The notes: a model not told the origin generated them from the sequence alone. 64,000 nt of DNA from Candidatus Nomurabacteria bacterium (GCA_052035405.1 JBPOHQ010000004.1:70687-134686), one strand, 5' to 3'; numbered from the stretch's first letter, positions 2,515 through 43,289 are shown. Numbers and translations: made by a program.

Positions 2515-2889
2515 CTAAACAATCCTAAATCCTCCAGGATTGGAGCACGGAGATGCTGGCTCTATTAGTAGAGGTATTTGTTGTTTTTCTTGCTGTTGCT
2601 TTTCTTGCTGTTGTTTTTCTTGCTGTTGCTGTTGCTGTTCTTGTTCGAGTTGGCTTTGATCTTGGTTTTGGTTTTGGGCAACGACGAGCAATACTTCTTC
2701 TACTGGCATACAAATTAAATTTGAAAAATCAAAAAATACATGACCCACATTGGTCACGTTTATCTTTACCCGACTGTGTGTATCGGGAACAAAGGTATAC
2801 AGGCTTGTAAAACAAACCAACATAACTTTGTTTCCGAATCTCACTTGAACACAAACAAAACCAAAAAATTTTAAAGAACTAAACTGCAT
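2515..2889 (-). CDS. hypothetical protein with Gln/Glu-rich pentapeptide repeat (EKQQQ)x3; coding status uncertain
   Basis: ORF spans a 15-nt tandem DNA repeat; no recognisable domain. Confidence 0.25.
   Translation of the reverse strand: MQFSSLKFFGFVCVQVRFGNKVMLVCFTSLYTFVPDTHSRVKINVTNVGHVFFDFSNLICMPVEEVLLVVAQNQNQDQSQLEQEQQQQQQEKQQQEKQQQEKQQIPLLIEPASPCSNPGGFRIV
2570..2665. repeat. 15-nt tandem repeat (TTGCTGTTGCTTTTC-like, ~3 units plus degenerate copies; CAA/CAG-rich on the other strand)
   Basis: Direct reading: ttgctgttgcttttc ttgctgttgtttttc ttgctgttgctgttgctgttc. Confidence 0.7.
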
Positions 2890-16961: not shown

Positions 16962-17053
16962 GGTGAGCGTTCAGCAGATAGAACTAAACGATTCCTTACC
17001 CCACAAGGTCGGTTTGGTGGATTTTAGTAAAGTAAAACGACCCTTCTCGTGCG
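16962..17053 (+). ncRNA. element X copy 1: conserved ~91-nt structured intergenic element (unknown ncRNA family; strand uncertain)
   Basis: Shares a 5' block GGTGAGCGTTCAGCAGATAGAAC and a 3' block ACGACCCTTCTCGTGCG with copies at 39291 and 40373; internal hairpin CCTT-N8-AAGG covaries between copies. Confidence 0.55.
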
Positions 17054-17740
17054 TCAATTATCTAAATCAATCTTGTCTAGAGAAATTTGTTCTTTAAAAG
17101 TTTTTCCTGTTTCTTTTTCCGCAATGTATGCCATTAGTAGAAGTAAACCTGTGGTATATCCAAAAATTAAAGCGTATAGAGATTCATCCAGTTTCTGTTT
17201 AAGTCCTCCATCGTCATTATATACATTAGCTTCAACTCGATACTTCTTATCTTTCACATATATAAAAACATTTGCCGTCTTATGTACCGAAGAATCTCTT
17301 AAATTTCTTAGGTCAGAAAAAATTTTATTATCAAGATGTTTTCTAAATTTTTCTTCAATTTCTGGATATTCACCTGATTGAACCTTCTTAAGAAATTTAT
17401 TAAAACTTTTTTGCTGGACACCATATTGATCTTTGAGAAAAATGAGTAGGTAGTCATAAATAGATCTTGCTAGAGTTAAATAGCTTTCAAATAACCCTGC
17501 CAATATCTCATGGTTTACATCATGTTTCGCATCATTTATTTCTTTTTCACCAGCTTTGTATAAAATGTCCCCAATTATTCCAGTCCTAAAAAGACGAAAA
17601 AAGATTTGTGATGAAATTTGACCTTTCTTTTTATGGAGTACATTTTTAACAAAATAATTCTGAGATAATGCATGAAAAGCATATGAGGATGGTTTATCAA
17701 AACTAAATTTAAAATATTTATTTGTAAGCTCTAATGACAT
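17054..17740 (-). CDS. hypothetical protein
   Basis: 228 aa, no recognised motif; bracketed by element X copy 1 and tRNA-Glu. Confidence 0.5.
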   Translation of the reverse strand: MSLELTNKYFKFSFDKPSSYAFHALSQNYFVKNVLHKKKGQISSQIFFRLFRTGIIGDILYKAGEKEINDAKHDVNHEILAGLFESYLTLARSIYDYLLIFLKDQYGVQQKSFNKFLKKVQSGEYPEIEEKFRKHLDNKIFSDLRNLRDSSVHKTANVFIYVKDKKYRVEANVYNDDGGLKQKLDESLYALIFGYTTGLLLLMAYIAEKETGKTFKEQISLDKIDLDN

Positions 17741-17785
17741 ATACCAATATCATATACAGCACCTTCTCGTGCGCGCTGTTGACGG

Positions 17786-17857
17786 TGACCTCACGGAGAA
17801 TCGAACTCCGATTAGCGGATTGAGAACCCGCTGTCCTAACCGTTAGACGATGAGGCC
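17786..17857 (-). tRNA. tRNA-Glu (anticodon CUC)
   Basis: Reverse complement GGCCTCA-TC-GTCTAACGGTTAGGAC-A-GCGGG-TTCTCAA-TCCGC-TAAT-CGGAG-TTCGATT-CTCCG-TGAGGTC-A(CC) folds as a cloverleaf. Confidence 0.75.
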
Positions 17858-38257: not shown

Positions 38258-38848
38258 TTATTGCTCAATAACGACCTTTAATTTAGGCCATTTTTCTAAC
38301 CATTTTTTAGTTTTTACTCTGTCCCAAAAAAGATCAAGATTTTTATATTGTGGAGCGGTGGGTCTGATGATTAAATTCACTAAGTCGTCTATACCGTGGG
38401 GAGCTATTATCCTCGGTTCACCATTTTCAAGAGTTACGGCCACACACGTCGGCGTCTCTACCCATTCAGAAAGTCCTTCTTCTGCATTTCGGTAATGCTC
38501 CGTCCTGTCATGCTTAGTATGCATATATGCTTGATTTCTTATCTCCCATTCGAGCCCCAGGAGCCCGGACATCTTTTCTGAAAGCTTTTTATCTGCCTCT
38601 TTATCAGGATTATTCATATCAAAATATATTAAATCGATATCTCTCGTATCAGCAACTTCCCTTTTTATATCATGAAGATGATCCCAAACTTTATTCCTCA
38701 AAAATCCTGCACCAATCATCCAATCAGGCAAGTTTAACTTCTCCGCTTCATGAAGCACGTCCATCATCCATTTATCACTTTTTACTAAGTTTATTATTTC
38801 TTCTGTTTTCATTGGTGTGTTTAAATTAGTCTTCCCAAACCTCCACAA
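38258..38848 (-). CDS. nucleotidyltransferase-fold protein (pol-beta superfamily)
   Basis: GAGF...DIDL(IYFD) arrangement matching the GS...DxD nucleotidyltransferase signature; 196 aa; overlaps queD by 23 nt. Confidence 0.5.
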   Translation of the reverse strand: MWRFGKTNLNTPMKTEEIINLVKSDKWMMDVLHEAEKLNLPDWMIGAGFLRNKVWDHLHDIKREVADTRDIDLIYFDMNNPDKEADKKLSEKMSGLLGLEWEIRNQAYMHTKHDRTEHYRNAEEGLSEWVETPTCVAVTLENGEPRIIAPHGIDDLVNLIIRPTAPQYKNLDLFWDRVKTKKWLEKWPKLKVVIEQ

Positions 38849-39191
38849 AAGATTTTGCTGTTTCGTGAAGTTTTATTTTTACAACATTAACACCCTTTGT
38901 CTTAATCCTATTAAAGCACTCAGTTGCTAGATTTTCTGCTGTTGTAGTAAAAGGTAGAATATCATTCAGATATTGATGATCCCATTGAGAAATAATCTCA
39001 CTTTCAACAATTTTTGACAGATCTGAAAAATCCATAACCATACCCTCTTTGCTACCGCTTTCAATTATTTTACCTGAAACAGTCACCTCGAGCACGTATG
39101 AATGACCATGTAAATTTTTACACTTTCCATCATGATTCGGCAAACTATGAGCTGCTTCAAATTTAAATTGTTTTGTAATCGAGGTATTCAT
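38826..39191 (-). CDS. queD: 6-carboxy-5,6,7,8-tetrahydropterin synthase / 6-pyruvoyl-tetrahydropterin synthase family
   Basis: 121 aa; catalytic Cys-x3-HGH (CKNLHGHSY) and C-terminal His/Glu. Confidence 0.8.
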   Translation of the reverse strand: MNTSITKQFKFEAAHSLPNHDGKCKNLHGHSYVLEVTVSGKIIESGSKEGMVMDFSDLSKIVESEIISQWDHQYLNDILPFTTTAENLATECFNRIKTKGVNVVKIKLHETAKSFVEVWED

Positions 39192-39234
39192 AAGTTAAAT
39201 ATACTATTAGTGTTAGTTTATTGCTAGTGACATT

Positions 39235-39293
39235 CTTCACAAAAACGCAAAAGACTGGAGCAGTCCAGTCTTTTCTTTATAAGCGTTTTTATG
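39235..39293. terminator. ~58-nt nested-palindrome terminator module, copy A (AAAAACGC-AAAAGACTGGAGCAGTCCAGTCTTTT-CTTTATAA-GCGTTTTT)
   Basis: Near-identical (one extra A) to 42478-42540; inner 10-bp stem followed by T-run, outer 8-bp inverted repeat. Confidence 0.65.
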
Positions 39294-39381
39294 AGCGTTC
39301 AGCAGATAGAACCAAACAATTCGTTACCCTGTAAGGCTATTTTAGCTAGTTTTAGATAATTTTATCGACCCTTCTCGAGCG
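39291..39381 (+). ncRNA. element X copy 2
   Basis: TGAGCGTTCAGCAGATAGAAC...TTACCCTGTAAGG...CGACCCTTCTCGAGCG; same spacing as copies 1 and 3. Confidence 0.55.
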
Positions 39382-39409
39382 ATTGTTAAAAATACTAAAT
39401 TTCTGATGA

Positions 39410-40303
39410 CTATGTTTTGATAATTGTACCAATAAATGAACTTTCTGTATCGAATGATTTGTGAGTATATTGAGCGAGTTCAGACTCAAGTGATTCCTTG
39501 GTGTATCGTAATGACTGAAACACAATCAATTTGTCACCCGACGTAATACCAATGCTTTCTAGTGCTGAATTGGTATTAATCACTAAACATGACACTCGAA
39601 ATCCGTCGTCTGCAATTCTTGGTGAGATATCAGTGAATGGATCAAGTCCGATAAGTCGAACCTTGTCATCTACTAGTCGAACAGCATCTTCTTGATAAAC
39701 TTTTTGCAATTCAACCATATCTACACGATCACGCATCTGCGCATTTATAAACACAAAACCGTTTGTTCCCACAATGTCAGTAAGAAGCTTTAATATTTCT
39801 TGTGGTGCGTAATTTGAAAACGTAAGACCAAGAGAAACAAACCGAGGAACTGTGGATTCTCCAAGAACCTCAGGTAATTCTTCAAATGAGGCTTTCACTT
39901 TTCGTACAGGAATCCCTTGTGGTGTTGCGTGTGAATCTGCCATTTCAAGAAAGTGATCACTGATATCTACAGGAACATATATAAAAGATTTACCTTGTTT
40001 TTTAAGTTCATCAAACAGGAACTGCTCCTTGTGTTCTGTGCCTGGACCAAGATCAATGTATTCAAAATTATTTGGGAGTATATCTGCAATATTTTTTGCA
40101 ATTAGTTGTAGATATTCATGTTCTGGTTTTGTGACTAGTTTGAAATACGAAGTATCTTCTTCTTGTAACTGTTCGTAAACTGCATCGCCCGAACCAATGT
40201 AAATAAGAAGGGAATCCGAAAAATCCCAAATCCCATTATCTAGTTTCTTGAGAGATTTGAAGGCTCGATCCTTAAACCATTCTTGGTTGTATTTTCCATC
40301 CAT
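39410..40303 (-). CDS. SAM-dependent methyltransferase of the EgtD / Methyltransf_33 (histidine N-alpha-methyltransferase-like) family
   Basis: Collinear with EgtD: YIDLGPGTEHK (cf. ELGSGTSEK), YVPVDIS, SLGLTFSNY (cf. FLGSTIGNL); 297 aa. Confidence 0.55.
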   Translation of the reverse strand: MDGKYNQEWFKDRAFKSLKKLDNGIWDFSDSLLIYIGSGDAVYEQLQEEDTSYFKLVTKPEHEYLQLIAKNIADILPNNFEYIDLGPGTEHKEQFLFDELKKQGKSFIYVPVDISDHFLEMADSHATPQGIPVRKVKASFEELPEVLGESTVPRFVSLGLTFSNYAPQEILKLLTDIVGTNGFVFINAQMRDRVDMVELQKVYQEDAVRLVDDKVRLIGLDPFTDISPRIADDGFRVSCLVINTNSALESIGITSGDKLIVFQSLRYTKESLESELAQYTHKSFDTESSFIGTIIKT

Positions 40304-40316
40304 GTCTCAATTGTAT

Positions 40317-40347
40317 CACAAAAACAGCTCCCTTCGGAGCTGTTTTT
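40317..40347. terminator. rho-independent terminator (AAAAACAGCTCC-cttc-GGAGCTGTTTTT)
   Basis: Perfect 11-bp stem with flanking A/T runs between element X copy 3 and the methyltransferase start. Confidence 0.65.
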
Positions 40348-40372
40348 GTATGCTTCTCGTGCTAGCCCGAAA

Positions 40373-40463
40373 TGGTGAGCGTTCAGCAGATAGAACCTTT
40401 TGATTCATTGCCCAGTAAGGTCATTTACTACTTTTCATGATATCAGAACGACCCTTATTGTGC
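40373..40463 (+). ncRNA. element X copy 3
   Basis: GGTGAGCGTTCAGCAGATAGAAC...CATTGCCCAGTAAGG...ACGACCCTTATTGTGCG; preceded by an extra CTTCTCGTGC motif at 40351. Confidence 0.55.
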
Positions 40464-40478
40464 GACCTAGTAAAAAAG

Positions 40479-41516
40479 CTACGAAATTTCTTTTGCATGC
40501 TTCAGATATTCTAGGAAGGCAATCTTCATCTCCTTATTACTACCACTCTTGTTTATATCCGAACGGCTTCCTGACATAATTGTATTCACATCAGGCAGGT
40601 TCCAGGCTGTCTGGTCACTCAATATCCACCTATCATGGGTATCTCTAATAAGAGTGCTGTCGATTTTGAGCCATTCTAAACTAATACCCTTACTAGATAG
40701 CTCTTTTTTTAGATCCCGGTACTCCTTCAAGACCTTTGGAGTTATATGAACATCAAGCCCTAAGGAAAGAATTTTAATATCTTTGATTTTATTCGCATCA
40801 GCAGTCTCCCATATGTATTCAAGGCCAGCAGAAGTGAAATGCTTATCGAGCCAATAGATATTACCTTTACAGCCTGACAATACCCGTTTAAGCCACATCT
40901 TATTTCCATACGGACGTGTTGGATCAATAAATATACTTGATGGTATCTCCGTTTCTTCTGCTGTCTGATTGAAGAGAACTTGAATTGTCTTGAATTTCTT
41001 TGAATATGTAATCAAGCCGACCGAGTTCATCATCAACAGAAGATTTGTAAGAGGACTCTCATCCATATAACACCAGAAACCCCTACTCTTCAAAATCGAC
41101 AAGGCGTTCTCTTTTTTTGGATTTTTTACTCCGTAAAGCAACTGAAGTATTGCTTCACATGGAGGAAATTGGAGTAACCCTTTCTTGAGTGCTTCGTTAG
41201 CCCTATCTACCTCAGAACGAATATACCTACCGTGATAATAAGAAGTTCCAAGTTCAGTAAGACTGTCTGAGGTAATCTCCATAAATCCTAGTGACCTTAG
41301 AAAATCAATGTCATCGTTGGATCCATCGGAATCTTCATCTTCAGCAATCGCCTTCAATATTTTTTCGTAAGAACTCCAAGTTCTCTGAGGAAGAAGATGC
41401 TCTTCGTTGTTATTCTCCTGTAGATTCTGTGTCTCCATTTTCATTTGAACCATTGGTTTTAGAGTACTTGTCACTGAACCCCGTAACGGAAGAAATAAGT
41501 GCCTTGTAGTCATCAA
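40479..41516 (-). CDS. hypothetical protein (unknown family), gene A of an overlapping pair
   Basis: 345 aa, no recognisable catalytic signature; annotated start overlaps upstream gene by 107 nt (a later Met would cut this to ~29 nt). Confidence 0.5.
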   Translation of the reverse strand: MMTTRHLFLPLRGSVTSTLKPMVQMKMETQNLQENNNEEHLLPQRTWSSYEKILKAIAEDEDSDGSNDDIDFLRSLGFMEITSDSLTELGTSYYHGRYIRSEVDRANEALKKGLLQFPPCEAILQLLYGVKNPKKENALSILKSRGFWCYMDESPLTNLLLMMNSVGLITYSKKFKTIQVLFNQTAEETEIPSSIFIDPTRPYGNKMWLKRVLSGCKGNIYWLDKHFTSAGLEYIWETADANKIKDIKILSLGLDVHITPKVLKEYRDLKKELSSKGISLEWLKIDSTLIRDTHDRWILSDQTAWNLPDVNTIMSGSRSDINKSGSNKEMKIAFLEYLKHAKEIS

Positions 41517-42141
41517 GAAGACCTATATTCGTAAGAATATCTTTTGGAAGAATCAAACTGATACCACTTTTCCCAAATGGGATTACGGTGTGTTCTGAGT
41601 CTGTCGCAATAGTAGTTTTAGAACCTGGTCTGGTAATCTGCGCTTTTGCAACTGGCTTTCTTGTGGGTGTATTTGATGGAATTCTTGGAGTCTTTATCTG
41701 AGCGGAAACCTCTCGAAGACCTGCTTGTTCACAAAGATACACAAATGCTGGTACGGCACCCGTAGCAACTCGTGAACTTATCTTGTATACATGCATGAAA
41801 TCGTTATGCAGTTCATCCTTGCCCATGGTACATGCCTCAGGAACAACTTTGAGGAGGGCCTCATATGAGGTTTTTACCATCTCAACAAGTGCCTGTGCTT
41901 TTGCATCACCCTTATATCCCATTTTTGCCATCAAGGATGTACTATTGGAGTCGGCATCTATCAATCCAAGGAATCTCAAGGAGGCAACAGCCAAATTTGC
42001 ATCACTGCTGGAGAATGAGTGGGTAAGGAAATAATCAGGATTCAATGATGTCATACTTCTTGCACTTATCAGAGAAAGTACTTTCTCGAGTCTAGTAGCA
42101 CTCAAATACGCTGGTGACAATGGTCTTTTTTCTTCAGTCAT
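41410..42141 (-). CDS. hypothetical protein (unknown family), gene B of an overlapping pair
   Basis: 243 aa; structured N-terminal ~150 aa, Pro/Thr/Lys-rich linker, C-terminal ~60 aa; no known motif. Confidence 0.5.
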   Translation of the reverse strand: MTEEKRPLSPAYLSATRLEKVLSLISARSMTSLNPDYFLTHSFSSSDANLAVASLRFLGLIDADSNSTSLMAKMGYKGDAKAQALVEMVKTSYEALLKVVPEACTMGKDELHNDFMHVYKISSRVATGAVPAFVYLCEQAGLREVSAQIKTPRIPSNTPTRKPVAKAQITRPGSKTTIATDSEHTVIPFGKSGISLILPKDILTNIGLLDDYKALISSVTGFSDKYSKTNGSNENGDTESTGE

Positions 42142-42477
42142 AGTTTTATGTGAATTAATTTATAATGATATTATAAATCTATCATACCCATACAACTAAA
42201 TCAAGTTTTTATTAAAATAATAAAAGCCTTGTAGATAAGCATTTTTAGTGAGAAAATTTTTTATAATATAAAATTATCACTCAGTCAATATATAAATAAT
42301 GTCCATTAAACTCTAAATCCCATCTACTTGAAGCGTGTACTCAAATTAATTATAATATCCATTTTATTTAAACACTCGTGCGAGCTGTTGATGGTGAGCC
42401 ACAATAATTTGTTCGCCGTCGCTCACAAATTTTCCAGCCCCGGACTCAGCTGTTTTTCTTACTAGAAAAACATGCTT

Positions 42478-42540
42478 CCGTCTTCACAAAAACGCAAAAA
42501 GACTGGAGCAGTCCAGTCTTTTCTTTATAAGCGTTTTTGT
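42478..42540. terminator. ~58-nt nested-palindrome terminator module, copy B, abutting the tRNA-Glu(UUC) 3' end
   Basis: CGTCTTCACAAAAACGCAAAAAGACTGGAGCAGTCCAGTCTTTTCTTTATAAGCGTTTTTGTG; see copy A. Confidence 0.65.
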
Positions 42541-42611
42541 GACCCTACAGAGAATCGAACTCTGATTACCGCCTTGAAAAGGCGATGTCCTAACCGTTAG
42601 ACGATAGGGCC
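42540..42611 (-). tRNA. tRNA-Glu (anticodon UUC)
   Basis: Reverse complement GGCCCTA-TC-GTCTAACGGTTAGGAC-A-TCGCC-TTTTCAA-GGCGG-TAAT-CAGAG-TTCGATT-CTCTG-TAGGGTC-A; near-paralog of the Glu-CUC gene at 17786. Confidence 0.75.
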
Positions 42612-42758
42612 ATATGGGACATAATATAATATTTATGTTCTAATTGCAAAGGGTTTGATCTACAATATAACATTTTAACGTTTGCCTTTATATAAATAAA
42701 AAAGTAGGATACAAAAGAACAAAACCGAGCCTAGCGGTAAAACTAAGCATGATACAGT

Positions 42759-43289
42759 ATGAGACAGCTCTTTTTTATAGTCCTATTACTTGGGACTTCT
42801 AGATCATCACTCGCACAGCTGTCCCTAGAACAGATTGTGCACAACTACGAGACAGTACATGATACAATTCTTCCAGTATGTTTTTTGGAAAAAATTACAG
42901 GAATCTATAATTTTGTCGGAAGCCCTAAGATAGGCATAGACAGCAAAGGGTCAAGATTTTTCCCTGGAAAAATCTTCATTAGAGATAGTTCTGCTGTTTT
43001 TTCTCTTATAGAAGAAATGGCCCATGCATATCAATGGGAACAAAAAGGTGGTAAATTCAGAATGACTATAGCCCTAACAGGCTTGTCATTTAAAGCACTC
43101 TGGCGTACGGTCTTTTCTAAAAAACCAAAAAATTCTCGGAGTAAAAGAGGTACCGTTTGGCAACACTACACTGCATTCGCATACGAACCTATGCGAAGAA
43201 ATTTCTGGGCCTATGAATTTGAGGCTCATCATGTGATCTCTCCAGACATGCTTCAATATTTAAGTGAACCATGCGAGACAAAAAAATAA
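42759..43289 (+). CDS. hypothetical secreted protein
   Basis: 176 aa with N-terminal signal peptide (LFFIVLLLGTSRSSLA); no known domain. Confidence 0.45.
   Translation: MRQLFFIVLLLGTSRSSLAQLSLEQIVHNYETVHDTILPVCFLEKITGIYNFVGSPKIGIDSKGSRFFPGKIFIRDSSAVFSLIEEMAHAYQWEQKGGKFRMTIALTGLSFKALWRTVFSKKPKNSRSKRGTVWQHYTAFAYEPMRRNFWAYEFEAHHVISPDMLQYLSEPCETKK

What the first reader, a model, noticed from the sequence alone, without database searches (positions are those of the whole stretch)
38258..42611. Repeat-punctuated, tRNA-Glu-bounded locus with two overlapping unknown proteins next to queD and an EgtD-family methyltransferase
On the minus strand, reading in transcription order (5' to 3'), the locus runs: tRNA-Glu(UUC), terminator module B, a 230-bp AT-rich gap, gene B (243 aa), gene A (345 aa, whose annotated start overlaps gene B), element X copy 3, a terminator, an EgtD-like methyltransferase, element X copy 2, terminator module A, queD, and a nucleotidyltransferase-fold protein. 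Genes A and B carry no recognisable motifs. Gene B has two folded parts joined by a Pro/Thr/Lys linker. Gene A has a C-terminal region with scattered D/E/K/H residues that could be a nuclease-like fold. An EgtD-family methyltransferase without egtB nearby is odd, because EgtD normally feeds ergothioneine synthesis. The modular repeats and the tRNA boundary fit an accessory island or a small undescribed system (modification or defence?).
Basis: partly seen in the sequence, partly recalled or inferred. Interest (0 to 1): 0.7.

Follow-up and report, generated by a model that had tools for sequence, protein, structure and literature searches.

The report
Mobile two-gene PLD-nuclease module at tRNA-Glu
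Two overlapping unknown genes beside a tRNA-Glu gene in a Saccharibacteria-like genome form a rare, horizontally mobile pair: a DNA-binding protein with a phospholipase-D-type nuclease-like domain and a winged-helix partner, most likely an untested restriction-like defence module, while the neighbouring methyltransferase, queD and nucleotidyltransferase genes are unrelated.

Summary
The described layout is real. Only genes B and A form a unit. B ends at or overlaps A's start in 24 of 25 other loci, across candidate-phyla bacteria, Actinomycetota, other phyla and an archaeon. Homologues of the methyltransferase, queD and nucleotidyltransferase occur in none of 29 loci.

Gene B is DUF5343 and matches PADLOC candidate PDC-M34A. 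Gene A matches no PADLOC model.

Neighbours elsewhere include R-M systems, a TIR-TM effector, recombinases and tRNA or tmRNA genes.

Here, B, A and the methyltransferase lie in a 3,248-bp segment between 61/62-nt direct repeats that start in the tRNA's 3' end. A 90-nt element, X, follows three accessory cassettes.

Best reading: an untested restriction-like or toxin-antitoxin-like defence pair carried as island cargo. This is a new variant of a known kind, of moderate interest.

The parts
42539..42611 (-). tRNA-Glu(UUC), the upstream boundary of the inserted segment
   Evidence: ARAGORN; Rfam tRNA 61.7 bits
42481..42542 (-). Direct repeat, copy B (62 nt). It begins in the last 3-4 nt of the tRNA and contains terminator hairpin 42496-42523.
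   Evidence: 60/62 identity to 39234-39294; terminator scan; 2 matches against 0 expected
42375..42399 (-). Junction motif GCTCACCA-N10-GCACGAG, which resembles a tRNA or X 3' end followed by the X-start motif. It may mark the end of a decayed fourth X copy.
   Evidence: Pattern TCACC(A/G)-N10-GCACGAG with at most 1 mismatch occurs only at 17766, 40356 and 42375; alignment A7
42142..42374 (-). AT-rich 233-nt leader and promoter region of B-A. A sigma-70-like TTGACT-17-TATAAA lies at 42288-42260.
   Evidence: GC 0.206. The hexamers were read directly from the sequence and were not listed by the scanner, which requires a T at position 6 of the -10 element. DNA homology to the closest relative starts only at 42205.
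41410..42141 (-). Gene B (243 aa): DUF5343 winged-helix/helical N-domain (about residues 10-146), a disordered P/T/K linker (147-181), a small beta-hairpin plus helix C-module, and an acidic tail
   Evidence: Pfam DUF5343 E=1.5e-9; PADLOC PDC-M34A E=1.3e-11; AF2 model; no significant PDB fold match; family alignment A2; tail acidic in 21/24 members
40479..41443 (-). Gene A (321 aa from the database start; the maximal ORF runs to 41516): tandem winged helices (about 20-160) plus a single-lobe PLD-fold domain (about 165-321). Invariant motifs are W198-x-D200, E248, H270-D271-R272 and N282-x-P284.
40376..40465 (-). Element X, copy 3, immediately after gene A
40318..40375 (-). Junction (..CACCA-N10-GCACGAGAAGC) plus an intrinsic terminator with a perfect 14-bp stem. 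It is 85% identical to a site in another CPR genome (L008 13018-13078).
   Evidence: Inverted repeat I13
39410..40303 (-). Methyltransf_33 (distant EgtD/EasF-like) SAM methyltransferase. It is a separate cassette and not part of the B-A module.
   Evidence: Pfam E=3.6e-17 over the N-terminal half only; TIGR03438 47 bits against a cutoff of 291; PDB EgtD E=8.8e-5; absent from all 29 B-A loci
39292..39381 (-). Element X, copy 2, after the methyltransferase
39234..39294 (-). Direct repeat, copy A (61 nt, terminator hairpin 39249-39274), the downstream boundary of the 3,248-bp segment
38826..39191 (-). queD (6-carboxytetrahydropterin synthase). It lies outside the repeat-bounded segment and is not linked to B-A elsewhere.
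   Evidence: TIGR03367 111.5 bits against a cutoff of 89
38258..38848 (-). NTP_transf_6 nucleotidyltransferase. It overlaps queD by 23 nt. In relatives it is not syntenic with queD but again lies just downstream of tRNA genes.
   Evidence: Pfam E=6e-50
16964..17053 (-). Element X, copy 1. It directly follows an unknown 228-aa ORF (17054-17740) that lies downstream of tRNA-Glu(CUC) (17784-17857). That tRNA's own flank carries the X-start motif GCACGAGAAGG at 17762-17772.

Best explanation
The core of the finding is a horizontally mobile two-gene module, B then A. It has landed downstream of tRNA-Glu(UUC) together with an unrelated methyltransferase cassette.

Gene A is a DNA-targeting protein. 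Its N-terminal tandem winged helices resemble the recognition modules of type IIS restriction enzymes and would bind DNA. Its C-terminal domain is a single-lobe PLD-fold domain of the MIT_C-like 'HDR' class and is the predicted catalytic part.

By analogy with the single-lobe PLD nucleases Nuc, NucT, BfiI and Zucchini, two A subunits would pair their PLD lobes into one active site. His270 would attack the phosphodiester without a metal ion, assisted by Arg272 (in the place of the canonical Lys), Asn282 and acidic residues (Asp200, Glu248 or Glu296).

Gene B is a non-enzymatic winged-helix protein (DUF5343). It is made in fixed proportion through translational coupling, since the genes overlap. 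It probably binds A through its small C-terminal module and acts as the sensor, specificity subunit or restraining (antitoxin-like) subunit.

The pair most likely works as a restriction-like or abortive anti-phage/anti-plasmid module carried as cargo of tRNA- and tmRNA-targeting islands.

Shown here: conservation of the pair, the folds, the invariant motifs, the fusion architectures, the mobile and defence-type neighbourhoods, and the repeat-bounded insertion.

Inferred only: nuclease activity, dimerisation, B-A binding, and the defence phenotype.
For: Pair conservation:
- A B-family ORF ends at or overlaps the start of A in 24 of 25 loci that have upstream DNA. All of these join gene B by iterative search.
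- The overlap is 35 nt here and in the closest relative, and 11 nt in actinobacteria.

Mobility:
- The distribution is patchy: Saccharibacteria and other Patescibacteria, Actinomycetota, Blastocatellia, Thermotogae, Chloroflexia, Aminipila and Methanococcoides.
- The family is rare, with 604 of 1.84 billion representatives at E<=1e-3.
- DNA homology to the closest relative is limited to 42205-40483.
- Gene A has the highest GC3 in the window (z=2.8).

Fold of A:
- AF2 pLDDT 92.6.
- Foldseek probability 1.00 to TrmBL2, MITD1, FAM83, NucT, Zucchini, PLD3/4 and SauUSI.

Active-site-like motifs:
- WxD after a beta-strand and HDR before a beta-strand are invariant in the family and in all fusion contexts.
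- This matches the PB-PLD1/MIT_C signature described in PMC12065111.

Effector role:
- The same domain lies C-terminal to GmrSD_N/DUF262 domains (one protein also has BpuJI_N) and to SNF2 helicase domains.

Context elsewhere:
- Type I R-M, PIN and an integrase.
- An integrative element with a PADLOC TIR-TM gene (E=1e-48) and a serine recombinase.
- N6_Mtase x4, Methylase_S x3, an EcoRI R+M pair, Eco57I x2, integrases and TrwC within 3 ORFs.
- HsdM-like genes in 5 loci and recombinases in 6.
- tRNA or tmRNA genes within 0.07-3.7 kb in 6 loci.

Gene B:
- It matches the defence candidate PDC-M34A.
- A divergent DUF5343 protein pairs with a different partner, DUF3800, which suggests a partner-swapping adaptor.

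Insertion in this window:
- 61/62-nt direct repeats start in the tRNA 3' end and bracket 3,248 bp.
Against: - No experiment exists for any member of either family, for PDC-M34, or for any MIT_C-like PLD domain. The only catalytic proposal is itself a prediction (PMC12065111).
- The canonical HxK(x)4D motif is not met. Arg replaces Lys, and Pfam PLDc models do not match. MITD1, TrmBL2, TrmB and FAM83, all among the best structural matches, are not known to be nucleases.
- Gene A matches no PADLOC model, and no family member does so consistently.
- No homologue was found in phage, plasmid or IMG/VR collections.
- Many neighbours are housekeeping genes, and only about 10 of 27 loci show R-M or recombinase genes nearby.
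- No DNA methyltransferase is conserved with the pair, so how the host avoids self-cleavage is unexplained.
Confidence: 0.6

Rival explanations
1. A is a TrmB/TrmBL2-like DNA-binding regulator or chromatin-type protein. Its PLD-like domain is non-catalytic and acts as a ligand or protein-binding sensor. B is a co-regulator. The pair controls genes of the mobile element or host and does not cleave nucleic acid.
For: - There is no canonical HxK motif. MITD1 and FAM83 are non-enzymatic as far as is known.
- B has no conserved polar residues and looks like a winged-helix protein.
- hhalign hints weakly that A's N-terminal region and B are related DNA-binding modules (probability 23%).
Against: - An invariant H-D-R/D/N/E constellation is retained across very different architectures, which is unusual for a purely structural domain.
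- The domain lies C-terminal to GmrSD_N and SNF2 domains in other proteins.
- The distribution is patchy and transfer-like, and neighbours include R-M, TIR and recombinase genes.
Confidence: 0.17
2. B-A is a toxin-antitoxin or addiction module. Its main role is to stabilise the island or mobile element that carries it. A is the toxic nuclease and B is the neutralising partner. Any phage defence is incidental.
For: - It is a compact bicistron with overlapping genes. The putative neutraliser comes first and evolves much faster than the effector. B has only 5 hits by word search against 83 for A, and B is 59% identical against 77% for A in the closest relative.
- B's tail is acidic in 21/24 members, which is compatible with a DNA-mimic or inhibitor role.
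- The pair is located at the ends of integrative elements next to recombinases.
Against: - At 243-330 aa with a large folded domain, B is bigger than typical antitoxins.
- There is no match to known toxin-antitoxin families in Pfam or PADLOC.
- This reading overlaps mechanistically with the best explanation rather than excluding it.
Confidence: 0.15
3. One reading: B, A, the EgtD-like methyltransferase, queD and the nucleotidyltransferase together form one modification or defence system.
For: - All five genes are on the same strand within 4.3 kb.
- The methyltransferase shares the repeat-bounded segment with B-A.
- The methyltransferase start codon lies only 15 nt after the terminator that follows X3, so some read-through co-transcription is conceivable.
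Against: - 0 of 29 loci carrying the pair contain a homologue of the methyltransferase, queD or NTP_transf_6.
- Neighbour scans show no recurrent Methyltransf_33 or PTPS.
- The closest relative has the pair elsewhere.
- Each cassette has its own X element and terminator.
- NTP_transf_6 relatives occur alone downstream of other tRNAs.
- queD and NTP_transf_6 lie outside the direct repeats.
Confidence: 0.03

Closest known systems
[quoted passage not shown]
   Different: Here the domain is fused to tandem winged helices in a 310-aa protein. It is paired with a DUF5343 gene, not embedded in a Menshen (NsnA/B/C) or BREX system. The Pfam MIT_C match is only marginal (6/44 members, best E=0.033). I could not compare directly with PB-PLD1 sequences. 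No member of the class has a demonstrated activity.
PADLOC phage-defence candidate PDC-M34 (two-gene cassette FAM_01148>>FAM_01657; Payne et al., bioRxiv 10.1101/2024.01.29.577857)
   Same: Gene B and its CPR relatives match the PDC-M34A model (E down to 1.2e-15; 5 of 24 family members). Both are two-gene cassettes seen next to or inside R-M-type systems.
   Different: Gene A and 44 relatives match no PDC-M34B model, so the second gene differs. Most B-family members (19/24) do not reach the PDC-M34A model either. PDC-M34 itself is untested, and its second gene is not described in the text I could read.
Single-HKD PLD nucleases and PLD-type restriction enzymes (Nuc, NucT, Zucchini, BfiI, R.NgoAVII, SauUSI)
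   Different: The motif is HxR rather than HxK, and the Pfam PLDc/PLDc_2 models do not match. There is no cognate DNA methyltransferase. The recognition module is a FokI/BpuJI-like tandem winged helix, not a B3-like domain.
TrmBL2 / TrmB archaeal regulators
   Same: The order is the same, with a winged helix followed by a PLD-like domain, and TrmBL2 is the top Foldseek hit.
   Different: From my own knowledge, not tested here, TrmB-family C-domains bind sugars or serve a structural role and lack the invariant HDR/WxD residues. The TrmB family is vertically inherited and regulatory, whereas this pair is patchy and associated with mobile elements.
GmrSD-family type IV restriction enzymes (DUF262 N-domain plus DUF1524 nuclease)
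   Same: Relatives of A's C-domain lie at the C-terminus of GmrSD_N proteins, where GmrSD normally carries its DUF1524 nuclease (that comparison is from my own knowledge).
   Different: Gene A itself has no DUF262/ParB-like NTPase domain.

Membership tests
PLD superfamily (fold level) | Alpha/beta PLD lobe fold recognisable by structure comparison | tested here: met
Canonical HKD phospholipase D / Nuc-type nucleases | HxK(x)4D(x)6G(G/S)xN sequence motif; match to Pfam PLDc/PLDc_2 | tested here: not met
   The motif is H270-D-R272, with Arg in place of Lys. The +7 Asp is not conserved in the family. No PLDc-type Pfam match was found in gene A or in 44 relatives.
Canonical HKD phospholipase D / Nuc-type nucleases | Metal-independent phosphodiester cleavage through a phosphohistidine intermediate; active site formed by two lobes | not testable with these tools
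   This needs biochemistry.
MIT_C-like 'HDR' PLD class (PB-PLD1, MITD1 C-domain, BrxL C-terminus; PMC12065111) | [quoted passage not shown] | tested here: met
   D200 sits at the end of strand 194-199, and H270-D271-R272 lie immediately before strand 273-275. Both are retained in all fusion architectures.
MIT_C-like 'HDR' PLD class (PB-PLD1, MITD1 C-domain, BrxL C-terminus; PMC12065111) | Significant sequence-profile match to Pfam MIT_C (PF16565) | tested here: inconclusive
PADLOC PDC-M34 | First gene matches the PDC-M34A model | tested here: met
   Gene B E=1.3e-11. The closest relative's B gives 1.2e-15. Five of 24 family members match.
PADLOC PDC-M34 | Adjacent second gene matches the PDC-M34B model | tested here: not met
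   Gene A, 5 diverse relatives and all 44 members of alignment A1 show no PDC-M34B hit.
EgtD (ergothioneine histidine N-alpha-methyltransferase) | Score above the TIGR03438 equivalog cutoff; full-length Methyltransf_33 match including the substrate-binding half | tested here: not met
   47.1 bits against a cutoff of 290.9. Pfam matches only profile positions 19-164 of 304. The PDB EgtD match is E=8.8e-5 over residues 57-180.
tRNA-targeting genomic island | tRNA gene at one boundary and direct repeats that include the tRNA 3' end flanking the island | tested here: met
   The 61/62-nt direct repeats are 3,248 bp apart, and the left one starts at the last 3-4 nt of tRNA-Glu(UUC). Only those few bases lie inside the tRNA.
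tRNA-targeting genomic island | Integrase or recombinase encoded in or next to the island | tested here: not met
   tblastn with two tyrosine recombinases and one serine recombinase found nothing in the 64-kb window (best E=0.14). Sensitivity was limited because the Pfam searches were exhausted.
tRNA-targeting genomic island | An empty site (tRNA-Glu directly next to queD) in close relatives | tested here: inconclusive
   Relatives retrieved through NTP_transf_6 (60-68% identity) are not syntenic at all.
Integron gene cassettes (attC sites) | The cassette-end site folds as an imperfect hairpin; an integron integrase is nearby | tested here: not met
   Neither strand of X folds better than shuffled controls (z -0.74 to +1.41), and there is no covariation. 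No recombinase was found.
Known structured RNA (Rfam) for element X | Match to any Rfam covariance model | tested here: not met
   Only the tRNA genes matched. Nothing matched at the X copies, even at E<=5 over 38800-42800.

The most novel reading that the evidence does not exclude
The 90-nt X elements and the 'TCACC(A/G)-N10-GCACGAG(AAGG)' junctions may not be passive scars. They could be the recombination sites of a cassette-capture platform anchored at tRNA-Glu genes in Saccharibacteria and other CPR bacteria. In that reading, single accessory or defence cassettes (the 228-aa ORF; B-A; the methyltransferase; in another genome an unverified Mrr-like gene) are inserted one after another. Each would bring its own X and terminator, with the recombinase acting in trans. 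That would be an integron-like system with a different kind of site. The B-A cassette would then be one of its cargoes, and also the first tractable model for an active MIT_C-type (HxR) PLD nuclease.
Probability: 0.1. Interest if true: 0.75.

Novelty: new variant of a known kind. Interest (0 to 1): 0.45.

Why it matters
If B-A is a working defence or toxin module, three things follow.

1. It would add a compact two-gene system to the immune repertoire of ultra-small, host-dependent Saccharibacteria and of Actinomycetota. Gene A is absent from PADLOC 2.0.

2. It would give a small, soluble test case for whether the MIT_C-like 'HDR' PLD domain is an enzyme. That domain is shared with human MITD1 and with BREX BrxL, and PMC12065111 raises the question explicitly as an open hypothesis.

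3. It would show DUF5343 proteins acting as adaptors that pair with interchangeable effectors.

The repeat architecture also gives a concrete example of how tiny CPR genomes pick up accessory cassettes next to tRNA genes without a resident integrase.

Tried and rejected
- **X as a structured RNA or riboswitch (for example preQ1 upstream of queD).** Rejected. There is no Rfam hit even at a lenient E-value. Folding energies equal those of shuffled sequence on both strands, and there is no covariation.
- **X as a decayed tRNA-Glu 3' half.** Local alignments to six tRNAs are not significant (p>=0.07). Only a generic T-loop-like GGTTC and a terminal GCTCA/TCACC are shared. I keep this as a possibility only.
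- **X or the junction motif as a universal tRNA-Glu flank.** Rejected. tRNA-Glu genes in related loci lack it. X is absent from all 76 loci fetched by that point. The one exception is a relic of the junction plus terminator in L008.
- **Phage or plasmid carriage of the pair.** No hits in IMG/VR, INPHARED phages or PLSDB plasmids.
- **Sequence-level links of A to solved structures.** None, with either the single sequence or the profile.
- **Fold of B.** No significant PDB match, only weak winged-helix regulators.
- **Identifying PDC-M34B.** The paper's supplement gives only family numbers. The DUF3800 partner of a divergent DUF5343 protein is not PDC-M34B either.
- **Empty-site test.** Lookups with queD and the methyltransferase found only short Logan contigs of the same organism that end in the repeats. 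The NTP_transf_6-based metagenome scan returned non-syntenic relatives.
- **Literature.** Searches for DUF5343 and PDC-M34 returned nothing.
- **Mrr-like reading of the L008 cargo gene.** Made by eye and not confirmed by PDB sequence search.

Full report
**1. Observation**

The window is low-GC (0.355) and carries six tRNA genes. Its closest relatives in public genomes are Candidatus Saccharibacteria MAGs.

The repeats are not chance. The 22-nt X core occurs three times and the 41-nt terminator module twice, each against 0 expected.

Precisely, the 'terminator modules' are a 61/62-nt direct repeat (39234-39294 and 42481-42542, 60 identities). It starts in the last 3-4 nt of the tRNA and brackets 3,248 bp containing B, A, X3, the methyltransferase and X2.

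X is about 90 nt. Its first copy (16964-17053) directly follows an unknown 228-aa ORF downstream of the other tRNA-Glu (CUC).

Independent Logan assemblies of the same organism break at these repeats. The methyltransferase sits alone on a 1.1-kb contig, gene A on a 2.2-kb contig, and the queD contig ends 87 nt upstream of queD.

**2. What belongs together**

Gene A has 83 homologues of about 310 aa in the word-indexed search. In an exhaustive profile search of 1.84 billion representatives it has 604 at E<=1e-3, 422 at E<=1e-10 and 108 at E<=1e-30. It is a rare family.

A scan of one genome per species found 29 loci in Saccharibacteria, Kaiser-, Woese- and Kerfeldbacteria and other Patescibacteria, Microbacterium, Nocardioides, Terrabacter, Asanoa, Phytoactinopolyspora, Blastocatellia, Thermotogae, Chloroflexia, Aminipila and the archaeon Methanococcoides.

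In 24 of the 25 loci with upstream sequence, an ORF, about 240-330 aa where complete, ends at or overlaps the start of A. All of these join gene B in an iterative search (alignment A2).

None of the 29 loci has a homologue of the window's methyltransferase, queD or NTP_transf_6. Those families also do not recur among the 133 flanking ORFs.

In the closest relative (A 77% and B 59% identical) the pair lies between T4SS-pilin and SET-domain genes and what looks like an rRNA region. Nucleotide homology to the window runs only from 64 nt upstream of B's start codon to A's stop codon (42205-40483, 70% identity).

The functional and mobile unit is therefore the B-A bicistron. The other three genes are neighbours by accident.

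**3. Gene A**

No Pfam, PADLOC or PDB sequence match exists.

The AlphaFold2 model built on 44 homologues is confident (pLDDT 92.6, pTM 0.85). It shows a helical and winged-helix N-terminal half and an alpha/beta C-terminal domain.

- Foldseek places the protein with TrmBL2 (winged helix plus PLD-like domain), MITD1, FAM83 and the PLD nucleases NucT, Zucchini, PLD3/4 and SauUSI.

The family's invariant residues cluster in the C-domain: P178/N181, W198-x-D200, E248, H270-D271-R272-W273 and N282-x-P284.

The canonical HxK(x)4D motif of PLD enzymes is not present. His is followed by Asp-Arg. This matches the signature that PMC12065111 (NAR 2025) gives for its predicted 'PB-PLD1' effector of Menshen systems, for MITD1's MIT_C domain and for many BrxL C-termini: an acidic residue after beta-2 and HDR before beta-5.

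Six of 44 family members touch the Pfam MIT_C model weakly (best E=0.033). Membership of that class is therefore met on motifs and fold but is inconclusive at the profile level.

**4. Fusion partners of the C-domain**

The exhaustive search also found the C-domain alone (profile positions about 155-308) at the C-terminus of much longer proteins. Pfam shows these to be of two kinds:

- GmrSD_N/DUF262 proteins (P0193, P0219, P0225, and P0233 with a BpuJI_N recognition domain).
- SNF2-family helicases (P0206, P0232, P0235).

The WxD, HDR and NxP residues are retained in all of them. K201 and H202 of the window protein are not universal.

In GmrSD-type enzymes the C-terminal position is normally held by the nuclease (established knowledge of GmrSD, BrxU and SspE). 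This is the strongest indirect argument that the domain is a nucleic-acid-cleaving effector and not just a scaffold.

**5. Gene B**

B matches Pfam DUF5343 (E=1.5e-9) and the PADLOC model PDC-M34A (E=1.3e-11). Only the five CPR-type members of the 24-member family reach that model.

PDC-M34 is one of 145 untested 'guilt-by-embedding' candidates. It is a two-gene cassette with 97 occurrences, taken from genes embedded in BREX, DISARM and type I R-M systems.

Gene A and its relatives do not match PDC-M34B or any other PADLOC model consistently. The locus therefore meets half of that definition.

B evolves much faster than A (5 against 83 word-search hits). It has no invariant polar residue.

Its model shows a confident winged-helix/helical N-domain, a disordered P/T/K linker and a lower-confidence beta-hairpin plus helix. 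There is no significant match in the PDB. Its last 20 residues are net acidic in 21 of 24 members.

hhalign hints only weakly (probability 23%) that B's N-domain resembles A's N-terminal module.

A divergent DUF5343 protein (P0095) is followed by a DUF3800 gene instead of an A homologue. This suggests that DUF5343 proteins can pair with different partners.

**6. Context elsewhere**

- In Nocardioides panacihumi the pair lies in an integrative element that splits a Mg-chelatase/ComM-like gene. The element carries a TerL-like gene and a primase. The pair sits next to a gene matching PADLOC 'TIR-TM' (E=1.2e-48) and a large serine recombinase. Terrabacter has the related recombinase right after the pair.
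- In an uncultured actinobacterium the pair follows hsdR-hsdS-PIN-hsdM and an integrase.
- Within three ORFs across 24 loci, the most recurrent families are N6_Mtase (4), Methylase_S (3), HsdM_N (2), Eco57I (2), an EcoRI R+M pair, Phage_integrase (2), AAA_25 (2) and TrwC.
- tRNA or tmRNA genes lie within 0.07-3.7 kb of the pair in six loci. Examples are a tRNA-Gly 66 bp after A, a tmRNA gene 360 bp before B, and a tRNA-Gly followed by an integrase and then the pair.
- Many other neighbours are housekeeping genes. No phage, plasmid or IMG/VR record carries the pair.

Overall this is the pattern of island cargo with a defence flavour, but it is not an overwhelming statistical case.

**7. The insertion and element X**

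Gene A has the highest GC3 of 57 window ORFs (0.433, z=2.8). Gene B has the second-highest GC.

The composite 'TCACC(A/G)-N10-GCACGAG' occurs, with at most one mismatch, at exactly three places: directly after tRNA-Glu(CUC), directly after X3, and just upstream of the B leader. X itself begins with (C)GCACGAGAAGG. Each cassette (the 228-aa ORF, B-A, and the methyltransferase) is thus bracketed by junctions that look like 'tRNA-type 3' end plus flank'.

The 61 nt after X3 (junction plus terminator) are 85% identical to a site in a different CPR genome, L008, which encodes an A protein 55% identical to the window's. There the sequence reads GGGTCACCA-N9-GCTAGCACGAGAAGCATAC followed by a terminator with compensatory stem changes. 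It follows another cargo ORF, which I read as Mrr-like by eye but could not verify.

- X does not fold better than shuffled sequence and matches no Rfam family.
- X is not significantly similar to tRNAs overall.
- No recombinase is detectable in the window.

My reading is that X and the direct repeats are attachment-site-type remnants of serial insertions at tRNA-Glu genes. I could not test for an empty site, because relatives retrieved through NTP_transf_6 are not syntenic. Interestingly, in those relatives that gene again sits just downstream of tRNA-Glu, tRNA-Arg or tRNA-Tyr.

**8. The methyltransferase, queD and the nucleotidyltransferase**

The methyltransferase matches only the SAM-binding half of Methyltransf_33. 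It scores 47 bits against the 291-bit egtD cutoff. It should not be called EgtD, so the absence of egtB is not an anomaly.

queD passes its equivalog cutoff. queD and NTP_transf_6 overlap by 23 nt and lie outside the repeat-bounded segment.

**9. Mechanism and verdict**

The best-supported model (confidence about 0.6) is a restriction-like or abortive two-gene module.

- A binds DNA through its tandem winged helices.
- A dimerises through its PLD lobe and cleaves through His270, in a metal-independent reaction.
- B is translationally coupled to A and acts as the sensor, specificity subunit or restraint.

The catalytic steps are inferred from the fold, the invariant residues and the fusion architectures. 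Nothing in the MIT_C-like class has been assayed.

Relative to what is known, this is a new variant of a known kind: a PLD-effector defence candidate with a DUF5343 partner. It is partly anticipated by PDC-M34 and PB-PLD1 but identical to neither. Interest is moderate.

Noticed in passing
window 16964-17857 (minus strand): There is a second X-flanked cassette. tRNA-Glu(CUC) at 17784-17857 is followed by the flank ..CACCG-N10-GCACGAGAAGG. Next comes an unknown, very low-GC (0.288) 228-aa ORF (17054-17740) with no PADLOC or PDB match, and then X1 immediately after its stop codon.
   Followed up: partly
L037, L040, L041, L042 (relatives of window 38258-38848): Homologues of the NTP_transf_6 gene (60-68% identical) are not syntenic with queD or any other window gene. 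They still lie downstream of a tRNA gene on the same strand: tRNA-Glu(CUC) 1.1 kb and 3.4 kb upstream, tRNA-Arg(UCU) 87 bp upstream, and tRNA-Tyr 81 bp upstream. This suggests the gene is also tRNA-associated cargo in this lineage.
   Followed up: partly
L042 8738-8755 and 8937-8954: A perfect 18-nt duplicate of the 3' end of tRNA-Arg(CCU) lies 199 bp downstream of the gene. This is a classic attachment-site scar, in a related genome.
   Followed up: no
L008 12120-13080: A 282-aa ORF ends in a zinc-ribbon-like CxxC...CxxC motif. By eye it also has an Mrr-type '..GRFTKDA..LIDG..L' motif, which is unverified (no PDB sequence hit). It is followed by an X-like 3' part, a tRNA-Glu-type acceptor end (GGGTCACCA) and the same junction plus terminator found after X3 in the window (85% identical over 61 nt, with compensatory changes in the terminator stem).
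   Followed up: partly
L004/L013 (Nocardioides panacihumi, locus coordinates 1-12405 of L004): An integrative element of about 11.5 kb splits a Mg-chelatase/ComM-like gene. It carries a TerL-like ATPase, a primase/AAA_25 gene, the B-A pair, a PADLOC TIR-TM gene and a large serine recombinase.
   Followed up: partly
L077 5203-6562: A divergent DUF5343 protein that matches PDC-M34A (P0095) is followed 11 nt later by a 206-aa DUF3800 protein instead of an A-family gene. The DUF3800 protein matches no PADLOC model.
   Followed up: partly
window 38826-38848: queD and the NTP_transf_6 gene overlap by 23 nt, which suggests an operon. No other queuosine or 7-deazaguanine pathway gene was looked for in the window.
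   Followed up: no
L001/L002 8969-16020: In the closest relative, a roughly 7-kb stretch downstream of the pair has almost no called genes apart from a LAGLIDADG_2 ORF. tRNA-Ser and tRNA-Ile genes lie nearby. This is probably an rRNA operon with an intron-encoded homing endonuclease.
   Followed up: no
window 40303-40349: The methyltransferase start codon lies only 15 nt after the strong terminator that follows X3, with no recognisable promoter or Shine-Dalgarno sequence between them. How this gene is expressed is unclear.
   Followed up: no
window 2579-2638: A 15-nt tandem repeat (TGTTG(T/C)TTTTCTTGC, about 4 copies) lies inside an ORF region on the minus strand.
   Followed up: no
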